A DNA stretch of 30,710 bases from a virus (Duplodnaviria; Heunggongvirae; Uroviricota; Caudoviricetes). Positions 11,083 to 12,058 of this stretch are shown here, piece after piece. Each line of letters opens with the position of its first letter. The first letter of the stretch is position 1. A program made the position numbers and the translations under genes. The stretch covers positions 1-30,710 of IMG/VR virus record IMGVR_UViG_2529293040_000025; one strand, given 5' to 3'. The notes below the pieces were generated by a model, which was not told the DNA's origin, ran no database searches, and worked only from the letters and a program-made list of their open reading frames with translations.

Positions 11083-11735
11083 TGAGTAATAAATATTGCC
11101 AGGCGCTGGCGGAACTGCGGAACAAACCAGCCCATGAACTGAAGGAAGTGGGCGATCAGTGGCGCACGCCGGACAACATTTTCTGGGGAATTAACACCCT
11201 GTTTGGCCCGTTTGTTCTGGATCTGTTCACTGACGGTGATAACGCCAAATGTGCTGCGTATTACACGGCGGAAGACAACGCGCTGGCGCATGACTGGTCA
11301 GAACGCCTTGCGGAGCTTAAAGGTGCTGCCTTTGGTAATCCCCCATACAGCCGCGCCAGTCAGCATGAGGGGCAATACATCACCGGCATGCGTTACATCA
11401 TGAAGCATGCCAGTGCCATGCGTGATAAAGGCGGGCGCTATGTTTTCCTGATCAAAGCTGCCACCAGCGAAGTGTGGTGGCCGGAAGATGCAGATCATAT
11501 TGCTTTTATTCGCGGGCGTATTGGTTTTGAACTGCCTGCCTGGTTTATCCCGAAGGATGAGAAGCAGGTGCCGACAGGCGCTTTCTTCGCTGGTGCTATT
11601 GCTGTTTTCGACAAGACCTGGAAGGGACCGGCAATCAGCTACATCGGGCGCGATGAACTTGAGGCATGTGGTGAGGCCTTTCTGGCGCAGGTTCGCCAGC
11701 AGGCAGAAAAACTGGTCAGGGAGATGGTGGCATGA
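11082..11735 (+). CDS. phage N6-adenine DNA methyltransferase (Dam-like)
   Basis: NPPY catalytic motif (FGNPPYS) and surrounding sequence typical of phage N6A methylases. ATG overlaps the upstream stop (TAATG). ORF-track start 11049 is an upstream extension. Confidence 0.8.
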   Translation: MSNKYCQALAELRNKPAHELKEVGDQWRTPDNIFWGINTLFGPFVLDLFTDGDNAKCAAYYTAEDNALAHDWSERLAELKGAAFGNPPYSRASQHEGQYITGMRYIMKHASAMRDKGGRYVFLIKAATSEVWWPEDADHIAFIRGRIGFELPAWFIPKDEKQVPTGAFFAGAIAVFDKTWKGPAISYIGRDELEACGEAFLAQVRQQAEKLVREMVA

Positions 11736-12058
11736 CGACGTTAACTCAATGCCAGCAGCAGGTGCTGGATATGCTGATTTCTTATCAGAAAGAACGTGGC
11801 TTCCCGCCAACCAATCAGGAGGTGGCAACCATGCTGGGATACCGTTCAGTGAATGCAGCGGTGGAGCATCTTCGCGCACTGGAGAAAAAAGGCGTCATCA
11901 CGATAAAGCGTGGCGTGGCCCGGGGCATCACGCTTCATACCGCGGTGAAGGACGACGACAGCGAGGCGGTCGGGATTATCCGCTCACTGCTTGCCGGTGA
12001 GGAAAACGCCAGGCTGCGTGCAACCCACTGGTTACATAAGAGGGGCCTGAAAGTATGA
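11732..12058 (+). CDS. LexA DNA-binding-domain-only protein (no peptidase domain)
   Basis: QQQVLDMLISYQKERGFPPTNQEVATMLGYRSVNAAVEHLRALEKKGVI is closely similar to the LexA N-terminal winged helix; the protein ends after about 108 aa. Coupled to both neighbours. Confidence 0.7.
   Translation: MTTLTQCQQQVLDMLISYQKERGFPPTNQEVATMLGYRSVNAAVEHLRALEKKGVITIKRGVARGITLHTAVKDDDSEAVGIIRSLLAGEENARLRATHWLHKRGLKV

What the first reader, a model, noticed from the sequence alone, without database searches (positions are those of the whole stretch)
11732..12058. Phage-encoded LexA DNA-binding domain without the autocleavage domain
The 108-aa protein is highly similar to the LexA N-terminal winged helix but stops before the S24 peptidase and dimerisation domain. 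Such a protein could not be inactivated by RecA-stimulated cleavage, so it could act as an SOS-insensitive binder of LexA boxes, a dominant-negative partner, or a regulator of phage genes. It is coupled between the Dam-like methylase and RusA.
Basis: partly seen in the sequence, partly recalled or inferred. Interest (0 to 1): 0.55.

Follow-up and report, generated by a model that had tools for sequence, protein, structure and literature searches.

The report
Phage LexA-type DNA binder, no protease
A very common, already-annotated gene of E. coli lambdoid prophages encodes the DNA-binding half of the SOS repressor LexA fused to a short conserved helical tail instead of the self-cleaving domain; it is real and under selection, but its DNA target and role have not been tested.

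Summary
The ORF at 11732-12058 (+) is real and encodes 108 aa. Residues 1-69 are a LexA winged-helix domain (Pfam E=2.9e-19; 51% identical to E. coli LexA; model 1.0 Å from the LexA-DNA crystal structure). There is no S24 protease domain and no remnant of one. It is not a bare truncation: residues ~74-103 form two conserved helices specific to this family.

The gene is not new. It matches PHROG 362, is annotated 'LexA family transcriptional regulator', is orf42 of phage SfV, and occurs in 2,233 of 5,426 complete E. coli genomes. I found no functional study.

New here:
- Distant relatives (38-47% identical) occur in prophages of eight enterobacterial genera.
- RusA follows with an ATGA overlap in 131 of 146 loci.
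- The gene is optional within its module.
- dN/dS is 0.03-0.41.
- LexA contact residue Glu44 is replaced in most family members.
- The window holds no canonical SOS box.

Most likely it is a RecA-insensitive, delayed-early DNA-binding regulator with its own operator, like GIL01 gp6. A host SOS-box mimic remains possible. Interest is moderate to low.

The parts
11732..12058 (+). LexA-like gene, 108 aa (PHROG 362; 'LexA family transcriptional regulator')
   Evidence: ORF. Pfam PF01726. PHROG 362 full-length match, E=1e-59. Identical or near-identical copies in 55 phage records and 2,233 E. coli genomes.
11732..11938 (+). Residues 1-69: LexA-type winged helix-turn-helix DNA-binding domain
   Evidence: 51% identity to E. 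coli LexA 1-69. Model rmsd 1.0 Å to 3jso. dN/dS 0.03 among 53 E. coli-type alleles.
11849..11887 (+). Residues 40-52: recognition helix (VNAAVEHLRALEK). Contact residues N41, A42 and E45 are kept and E44 is Val. S39, also kept, lies just before the helix.
   Evidence: Alignments. Contact-residue list from PMC3091678 and PMC13416735. Position-44 statistics.
11951..12040 (+). Residues 74-103: family-specific two-helix C-terminal tail, a presumed self-association or partner-binding module
   Evidence: AlphaFold helices H74-87 and H93-103, pLDDT ~88. L86, L87, A93, A97, L101 and R104 are invariant in 20 enterobacterial members. A97 and L101 are invariant in distant members. dN/dS 0.20-0.41. No match in PDB by fold or sequence.
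11732..11735 (+). ATGA overlap: stop of Dam and start of the LexA-like gene
   Evidence: Sequence; ORF coordinates.
12055..12058 (+). ATGA overlap: stop of the LexA-like gene and start of RusA. Conserved across sub-families.
   Evidence: The same junction is found in 131 of 146 related loci.
11049..11735 (+). Upstream neighbour: phage Dam-type N6-adenine methyltransferase (variable partner, absent in some relatives)
   Evidence: PF05869, E=1e-45. Absent upstream of the gene in the Citrobacter loci L001-L004.
12055..12444 (+). Downstream neighbour: RusA Holliday-junction resolvase (constant partner)
   Evidence: PF05866. 64-91% identical in the loci of distant LexA-like sub-families.
7351..7380 (+). 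PR-like promoter (TTGACA-18-TACATT) overlapping an operator palindrome. Inferred source of the transcript that carries the gene.
   Evidence: Promoter scan; palindrome 7362-7379. No promoter is predicted immediately upstream of the gene. The link to this gene's expression is inferred by analogy with phage lambda.

Best explanation
The gene encodes a small sequence-specific DNA-binding protein derived from LexA. It is made only during lytic development, as part of the rightward early operon (O - PerC - Dam - LexA-like - RusA - KilA-N - ... - Q). It lacks the S24 domain, so RecA-stimulated self-cleavage cannot switch it off. The LexA-type winged helix reads DNA. The conserved two-helix tail replaces the missing LexA dimerisation domain, by self-association or by binding a partner. 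Its most likely job is that of an accessory phage transcription factor with its own operator, related to but distinct from the canonical SOS box, as shown experimentally for the truncated LexA homologue gp6 of Bacillus phage GIL01.

Shown here: domain identity, absence of the protease domain, conservation and purifying selection on both parts, operon position, translational coupling, and optional presence in the module. Inferred: expression timing, dimerisation through the tail, a non-SOS operator, and a regulatory role.
For: - Domain identity and fold.
- No S24 domain or remnant.
- Functional constraint: dN/dS is 0.03, 0.21 and 0.10 for the DBD and 0.41, 0.20 and 0.31 for the tail in three sub-families.
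- S39, R64, G65 and K53 are invariant and N41 and H46 nearly invariant across members only 38-47% identical.
- Shift away from LexA specificity: position 44 is Glu in 8 of 10 full-length LexA and in 64 of 88 other LexA-type fragments, but non-Glu in 10 of 12 tail-bearing representatives.
- Helix-3 positions 42-45 differ between sub-families (AAVE, TIAG, AAAE, AATD, GAFE, AVLL, TVFI).
- The protein diverges like the specificity proteins O (46-55%) and PerC (27-48%), not like the neighbouring enzymes Dam (79%), RusA (69-91%) and DUF968 (63-87%).
- Precedent: GIL01 gp6, a LexA DNA-binding domain without the protease, binds its own palindrome at -43.5 of a late promoter and activates it (PMC6182141). 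gp6 is homologous at profile level (hhalign probability 96%, 32% identity over 63 columns).
- Only the PR-like promoter lies upstream, with none next to the gene.
Against: - No candidate operator was found. There is no recurrent palindrome outside the immunity operators and the post-Q terminator, either in the window or in 104 related loci. CTGT/ACAG half-sites are not meaningfully enriched at any spacing or orientation.
- Four of the five published LexA base-contact residues are retained, so canonical SOS-box binding is not excluded.
- Dimerisation through the tail rests only on a monomer model and the hydrophobic conservation pattern.
- The gene is dispensable: near-identical modules lack it. 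Any regulatory role is therefore accessory.
- No experimental data exist for this family.
Confidence: 0.42

Rival explanations
1. RecA-proof LexA mimic. The protein binds the host's canonical SOS boxes (CTGT-N8-ACAG) and re-imposes repression on SOS genes after host LexA has been cleaved. During lytic growth this would damp recA, sulA and umuDC, and silence LexA-controlled competitors such as colicins or the antirepressors of other prophages.
For: - 51% identity to the host LexA DNA-binding domain, with S39, N41, A42 and E45 retained (PMC3091678).
- The model is 1.0 Å from DNA-bound LexA.
- Very strong purifying selection on the DBD in the E. coli sub-family (dN/dS 0.03).
- The phage window holds no canonical box (best matrix score 9.4, against 10.7±2.5 for the best score in random sequence and a median of 19 for real boxes). 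If specificity is canonical, the targets must therefore be in the host.
- The gene would be expressed just when host LexA is depleted. This is inferred from its position downstream of PR in a prophage with an S24-type CI repressor.
Against: - Contact residue E44 is Val here and non-Glu in most of the family.
- The recognition helix varies between sub-families whose hosts, to my knowledge, share the same SOS box. A fixed target should hold it constant.
- The half-site spacing of LexA is set by its C-terminal dimer, which is replaced here by an unrelated tail only ~5 residues after the wing.
- The one characterised truncated LexA, gp6, does not use LexA boxes.
Confidence: 0.25
2. RusA-linked role. 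The protein works with or for the downstream Holliday-junction resolvase, either as a DNA-targeting or restraining partner that binds through the tail, or chiefly as an upstream cistron whose translation sets RusA synthesis through the ATGA overlap.
For: - RusA follows with an ATGA overlap in 131 of 146 loci from sub-families only ~45% identical to this protein, while the upstream neighbour varies (Dam, O-like, PerC, other).
- In the other 15 loci RusA was not detected within 150 bases downstream. In the one locus I inspected (L099) it lies one inserted reverse-strand gene further on.
- The model's low pTM (0.53) despite confident helices is compatible with a tail that does not pack on the DBD and is free to bind something. 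This is an inference.
Against: - The whole module (O - PerC - MTase - LexA-like - RusA - DUF968 - Q) is syntenic, so linkage can be explained by descent and by the lack of an intergenic recombination point.
- RusA of the same subclade occurs without the gene, with Dam running directly into RusA.
- Canonical RusA (phage 82 type, ~40% identity) has no such partner.
- A mere leader cistron would not keep a DNA-binding surface under dN/dS 0.03.
Confidence: 0.1
3. Non-functional relic of a captured or truncated lexA gene that persists only by hitch-hiking in the nin-type region.
For: The gene is optional in the module. Many frameshifted or truncated copies exist in databases.
Against: - dN/dS is well below 1 in both parts in three sub-families.
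- The length (~105-112 aa) and the tail are conserved across eight genera at 38-47% identity.
- No S24 remnant is present.
- Full-length copies are near-identical in 2,233 E. coli genomes.
Confidence: 0.03

Closest known systems
GIL01 gp6 (Bacillus thuringiensis tectivirus; Fornelos et al. 2018, PMC6182141)
   Same: Both are phage-encoded LexA DNA-binding domains without the S24 autocleavage domain, encoded among early genes. They are homologous at profile level (hhalign probability 96.3%, 32% identity over 63 columns).
   Different: gp6 is 66 aa with no C-terminal extension, whereas this protein has a conserved 35-40 aa two-helix tail. gp6's recognition helix (SHKTAHRYL, with K38 critical) is unlike this one (SVNAAVEHL). 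BLASTP finds no pairwise alignment. The host phylum and phage type differ (tectivirus against lambdoid siphovirus or myovirus). gp6's operator and its activator role are experimentally shown; nothing is shown for this protein.
E. coli LexA repressor (PDB 1lea, 3jso; TIGR00498)
   Same: The N-terminal winged helix is 51% identical, with the same secondary structure and 1.0 Å rmsd. S39, N41, A42, E45, H46, K53, R64 and G65 are conserved.
   Different: It has no S24 peptidase/dimerisation domain and no Ser119/Lys156. It scores below the equivalog cut-off. E44 is Val and R28 is Asn. A tail unrelated to any LexA region by significant similarity (13% identity) replaces the C-terminal domain. It is phage-borne and optional.
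PHROG 362 / NCBI 'LexA family transcriptional regulator' of lambdoid phages (SfV orf42, mEp460, cdtI, SfII, SfIV, Stx2c and Stx2a phages)
   Same: This gene is a member: the match runs the full length (E=1e-59) and the copies in those phages are 96-99% identical.
   Different: Nothing differs. The family carries only automatic names, which are mutually inconsistent and partly wrong: 'transcriptional repressor', 'SOS-response repressor and protease LexA', 'RecA-mediated autopeptidases', 'Rrf2 family'. I found no published function.

Membership tests
LexA repressor (SOS regulator, TIGR00498 equivalog) | N-terminal LexA-type winged-helix DNA-binding domain (PF01726) | tested here: met
   PF01726 covers 1-65/65, E=2.9e-19. 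rmsd 1.0 Å to 3jso.
LexA repressor (SOS regulator, TIGR00498 equivalog) | C-terminal S24 peptidase/dimerisation domain with the Ser-Lys dyad | tested here: not met
   No PF00717 hit. TIGR00498 matches only positions 1-91 of 203. tblastn finds no S24 remnant near the gene.
LexA repressor (SOS regulator, TIGR00498 equivalog) | Whole-protein score above the curated equivalog cut-off | tested here: not met
   70.7 bits against a cut-off of 110.95.
LexA repressor (SOS regulator, TIGR00498 equivalog) | All five helix-3 DNA-contact residues (S39, N41, A42, E44, E45; PMC3091678) | tested here: not met
   S39, N41, A42 and E45 are kept, and E44 is Val. Position 44 is non-Glu in 10 of 12 tail-family representatives.
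LexA repressor (SOS regulator, TIGR00498 equivalog) | Binds the CTGT-N8-ACAG SOS box | not testable with these tools
   This needs EMSA, ChIP or SELEX. The window itself holds no credible box.
Phage-encoded truncated LexA homologue acting as transcription factor (GIL01 gp6 type) | Phage-encoded LexA DNA-binding domain lacking the protease domain | tested here: met
   Lambdoid prophage context. Profile homology to gp6.
Phage-encoded truncated LexA homologue acting as transcription factor (GIL01 gp6 type) | Consists essentially of the DNA-binding domain alone (~66 aa) | tested here: not met
   108 aa with a conserved two-helix tail.
Phage-encoded truncated LexA homologue acting as transcription factor (GIL01 gp6 type) | Own palindromic operator at a phage promoter, distinct from LexA boxes | tested here: inconclusive
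   No candidate palindrome in the window or in 104 related loci. Absence from a computational scan is not decisive.
Phage-encoded truncated LexA homologue acting as transcription factor (GIL01 gp6 type) | Activates late transcription | not testable with these tools
   Requires reporter assays or in vitro transcription.
PHROG 362 (lambdoid 'transcriptional repressor', LexA family) | Full-length profile match | tested here: met
   Residues 1-108 against 1-106/106, E=1.3e-59.
Known anti-phage defence systems (PADLOC) | Significant match to a defence-system component | tested here: not met
   Only a marginal CARF-HTH hit, E=3.6e-4 and 18 bits.

The most novel reading that the evidence does not exclude
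The LexA-derived winged helix plus tail is not a transcription factor. It is instead an accessory subunit of the RusA Holliday-junction resolvase encoded by the overlapping downstream gene. It would deliver RusA to, or keep it away from, particular DNA sites or structures during phage replication and recombination. That would be a new use of the LexA fold and a first known partner for RusA.
Probability: 0.08. Interest if true: 0.7.

Novelty: new member of a known kind. Interest (0 to 1): 0.35.

Why it matters
The gene sits in about 41% of complete E. coli genomes and in Shiga-toxin (Stx2a, Stx2c, Stx2k), cdt and Shigella serotype-converting phages. It has no tested function, and its database names are inconsistent and partly wrong (for example 'protease LexA' and 'RecA-mediated autopeptidase').

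If it binds SOS boxes, it would be a phage device that shuts the host SOS response back down after induction. That would bear on Stx production, antibiotic-induced prophage induction and competition between prophages. If it has its own operator, it adds an unrecognised regulatory layer to a very common lambdoid early operon.

Either answer is cheap to obtain experimentally. The kind of thing, a phage-borne LexA DNA-binding domain without the protease, is already documented, so a specialist would not be very surprised.

Tried and rejected
1. SOS-box core search (CTGT-N8-ACAG, up to 1 mismatch): 17 found against 10±3 expected, with two perfect cores at 8321 and 22717, both inside ORFs. Not enriched.
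No credible box.
3. CTGT/ACAG half-sites at spacings 0-15 in inverted, everted and direct orientation. Only direct repeats at periods 12 and 18 stood out. They are scattered in coding sequence (codon periodicity), apart from the origin iterons in the O gene.
4. Inverted-repeat search over 6300-18000. It found only the OL/OR-type operators, hairpins and IS ends.
5. Palindrome recurrence in non-coding DNA of 64 P0128-type and 40 P0123-type loci. It found only the post-Q terminator hairpin and immunity operators.
6. Fold and sequence searches for the tail: no solved relative.
7. PADLOC: no defence-system membership.
8. The search for related loci with the mixed family alignment failed because no stretch was conserved enough.
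9. The RusA scan of viral contigs returned only 100%-identical copies, which were useless for the reverse-linkage question. I used the curated phage collection instead.
10. The primary LexA-DNA structure paper was not available. The contact residues are taken from secondary citations.
11. Eight literature searches found no functional work on this family.
12. The idea that the gene is a decayed full-length lexA was rejected.
13. The dominant-negative heterodimer idea was set aside, because the LexA dimer interface lies in the missing domain (established knowledge).

Full report
OBSERVATION. The ORF at 11732-12058 (+) exists as described: ATG start, 108 codons. Pfam LexA_DNA_bind (PF01726) matches residues 1-65 end to end (E=2.9e-19). 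The best solved relatives are the E. coli LexA N-terminal domain and full-length LexA (E about 1e-15, residues 2-69). Identity to E. coli LexA over residues 1-69 is 51%. An AlphaFold model (pLDDT 80) has the LexA topology (H6-22, H28-35, H40-52, two-strand wing) and superimposes on DNA-bound LexA (3jso) at 1.0 Å over 68 residues.

There is no S24 domain. NCBI's lexA equivalog model matches only positions 1-91 of 203 and scores 70.7 bits against a cut-off of 110.95. tblastn with whole LexA finds no C-terminal remnant near the gene; the only S24-like stretch in the window belongs to the CI-type repressor at 6723-7064. The gene's start overlaps the Dam stop (ATGA, 11732-11735) and its stop overlaps the RusA start (ATGA, 12055-12058).

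The protein does not end after the winged helix. Residues ~74-103 are predicted with good confidence to form two helices. This tail is conserved: L86, L87, A93, A97, L101 and R104 are invariant among 20 enterobacterial members. The hydrophobic pattern, with A97 and L101 invariant, persists in relatives only 38-47% identical. The tail has no relative among solved structures by fold or sequence.

dN/dS is 0.03, 0.21 and 0.10 for the DNA-binding domain and 0.41, 0.20 and 0.31 for the tail in three sub-families. Both parts are therefore under purifying selection, and the gene is neither a decaying lexA fragment nor a bare truncation. One caveat is that the last few codons also carry the ribosome-binding region and start codon of rusA, which adds constraint.

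CONTEXT. The window is a lambdoid prophage. Reading along it:
- a CI-type HTH+S24 repressor (6663-7316, - strand), flanked by PL- and PR-like promoters that overlap near-identical palindromes (6548-6565 and 7362-7379);
- CII, then a Rha/Ash protein, then an O-like replication protein with iterons;
- PerC/YfdN, Dam, the LexA-like gene, RusA and KilA-N;
- an inserted IS (transposase 13534-14907), DUF968 and the antiterminator Q;
- three tRNAs, a nanS-type esterase, lysis genes, terminase and portal.

No promoter is predicted next to the gene. By analogy with lambda it is a delayed-early gene of the PR operon, silent in a stable lysogen. That timing is an inference.

HOW KNOWN IT IS. The gene matches PHROG 362 ('transcriptional repressor') over its full length (E=1e-59). 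Near-identical copies occur in 55 phage records, including SfV (orf42), SfII, SfIV, mEp460, cdtI and Stx2a, Stx2c and Stx2k phages. They also occur in 2,233 of 5,426 complete E. coli genomes, with up to four copies per genome. PGAP names it 'LexA family transcriptional regulator'. Other records call it 'SOS-response repressor and protease LexA' or 'RecA-mediated autopeptidases', which is wrong because it has no protease. Eight literature searches found no functional study.

The kind of protein is documented. GIL01 gp6 is a 66-aa phage LexA homologue without the protease domain. It binds its own palindrome at -43.5 of the late promoter P3 and activates it, independently of the LexA boxes nearby (PMC6182141). 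gp6 and this family are homologous at profile level (probability 96%, 32% identity over 63 columns), but not detectably by BLASTP, and gp6 has no tail.

FAMILY AND LINKAGE. An exhaustive search found tail-bearing relatives of ~105-135 aa at 38-47% identity. They come from prophages of Cronobacter, Kosakonia, Enterobacter, Cedecea, Klebsiella and Salmonella, besides the Escherichia, Citrobacter and Hafnia members found first. More than 200 viral contigs carry them.

In 131 of 146 loci the next gene is RusA, joined by the same ATGA overlap. In the other 15 (Cronobacter) loci RusA was not found within 150 bases downstream. In the one I inspected (L099), a reverse-strand gene has been inserted between the two. 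The upstream neighbour varies: Dam, another methyltransferase, a 75-aa ORF, PerC or O-like.

The linkage runs one way. Canonical RusA (phage 82 type, ~40% identical) has no such partner. Modules that are otherwise the same (O - PerC - Dam - RusA - KilA-N-like - DUF968) exist without the gene in Salmonella phage 118970_sal3, Escherichia phage vB_EcoS-716R3 and Yersinia phage YeP3. So the gene is an optional accessory of one lambdoid early module, always placed directly before rusA. Because the whole module is syntenic, the linkage may reflect descent and the absence of an intergenic recombination point rather than function. I treat it as a lead.

WHAT DOES IT BIND? Published LexA helix-3 contact residues are S39, N41, A42, E44 and E45 (PMC3091678, PMC13416735). 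This protein keeps S39, N41, A42 and E45, and has Val at position 44. Position 44 is Glu in 8 of 10 full-length LexA representatives and in 64 of 88 other LexA-type fragments, but non-Glu in 10 of 12 tail-bearing representatives. Positions 42-45 differ between sub-families, although all the hosts are Enterobacteriaceae, which to my knowledge share the CTGT-N8-ACAG box.

Identity between sub-family DBDs (median 51%) is no higher than identity to E. coli LexA (median 49%). Against the window's proteins, the LexA-like protein is 45-64% identical across sub-families. That is like O (46-55%) and PerC (27-48%), and unlike Dam (79%), RusA (69-91%) or DUF968 (63-87%). This pattern fits a target that co-varies with the phage better than an invariant host operator.

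I could not find such a target. The window has no credible SOS box. No CTGT/ACAG arrangement is meaningfully enriched. No recurrent palindrome appears beyond the immunity operators and terminators, either here or in 104 related loci.

VERDICT ON MECHANISM. Best-supported (0.42): a RecA-insensitive, lytic-phase DNA-binding regulator that uses a LexA-type winged helix and a family-specific helical tail for self-association or partner binding, acting on an operator of its own, as gp6 does. Rival (0.25): a LexA mimic that re-represses host SOS boxes after induction. This is supported by the four retained contact residues and by the very strong constraint on the DBD in E. coli, and weakened by the change at position 44, the variability of helix 3 and the different dimer geometry. 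Rival (0.10): a RusA-linked role. Rival (0.03): a relic. The 'dominant-negative partner' idea is unlikely by the canonical route, because LexA dimerises through the domain that is missing.

NOVELTY AND SCORE. This is a long-annotated, very common but uncharacterised family, and a member of a known kind (phage-encoded LexA DNA-binding domain without the protease). The additions here are the conserved tail, the family-wide loss of Glu44, the one-way RusA linkage, the optional status and the selection data. None of them would strongly surprise a specialist. The question of whether it touches the SOS regulon in Stx phages is nonetheless worthwhile and easy to test. Interest 0.35.

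Noticed in passing
window 12055-12058; loci L001-L151: The ATGA stop/start overlap between the LexA-like gene and rusA is conserved in 131 of 146 loci from sub-families only ~45% identical, while the upstream neighbour varies. RusA (64-91% identity) is far better conserved than its partner.
   Followed up: partly
window 13534-14907 (transposase); 14886-14916 (13-nt inverted repeat GTCTCTTGATCAG/CTGATCAAGAGAC): An IS with a Tn5/IS4-type transposase (Tnp_DNA_bind, DDE_Tnp_1, Dimer_Tnp_Tn5) is inserted between KilA-N and DUF968, upstream of Q. It may be polar on late-gene activation.
   Followed up: no
window 24705-25493 and 25445-26674: The terminase large subunit appears split into two overlapping ORFs. 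The first carries the GpA ATPase domain; the second was not scanned. This suggests a frameshift and a possibly defective prophage.
   Followed up: no
window 16594-20876: The late region has an Stx-phage-like layout but no toxin genes: Q, a terminator hairpin (16698-16723), tRNA-Met(cat), tRNA-Arg(tcg) and tRNA-Arg(tct) at 17097-17346, small ORFs, a TerB-domain protein (18041-18544), and a DUF1737/SASA nanS-type esterase (19023-20876).
   Followed up: no
window 10064-10091 (- strand TCTCTGT x3, period 12): Short direct repeats lie inside the O-like replication gene. They are most simply read as origin iterons.
   Followed up: partly
window 6548-6565 and 7362-7379: Near-identical 18-bp palindromes (ATGTAGGATATCCAACAT and ATGTTGGATATCCTACAT) overlap divergent TTGACA-18-TACATT promoters on either side of the CI-type repressor gene. 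They are presumably the OL/PL and OR/PR operators of this immunity type.
   Followed up: no
window 11987-12001 (residues 86-90, LLAGE): HMMER aligns the tail's first helix with the LexA hinge and cleavage-site region (LexA VAA|GE, A84-G85, against LLAGE here). The Ala-Gly pair is kept in the E. coli, Salmonella and Citrobacter sub-family and in Kosakonia, but not in more distant members. It may be a relic of descent from full-length LexA, or chance.
   Followed up: partly
proteins P0131, P0132, P0149, P0152 and others: Some representatives carry two LexA-type DNA-binding domains in tandem and were not among the ten with a detectable S24 domain (for example P0131, 222 aa, and P0132, 141 aa). 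This could be another way to obtain bivalent binding without the LexA dimerisation domain.
   Followed up: no
locus L099 8431-8973 (- strand), Cronobacter prophage: A 180-aa reverse-strand gene is inserted exactly between the LexA-like gene and rusA, in moron-like fashion. This was seen in L099; the other 14 Cronobacter-type loci without an adjacent RusA may be the same but were not inspected.
   Followed up: no
window 8321-8336 and 22717-22732: Two perfect CTGT-N8-ACAG cores lie inside ORFs (CTGTAAGTAACCACAG in the 5' part of the Rha/Ash gene, and CTGTGGATGGCAACAG). Both score far below real SOS boxes on a weight matrix.
   Followed up: partly
window 11049-11735; L232 611-1504; L099 6823-8004: The Dam-type methyltransferase upstream varies greatly in length through C-terminal extensions: 228 aa here, 297 aa in Salmonella phage 118970_sal3, and ~392 aa in Cronobacter prophages.
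   Followed up: no
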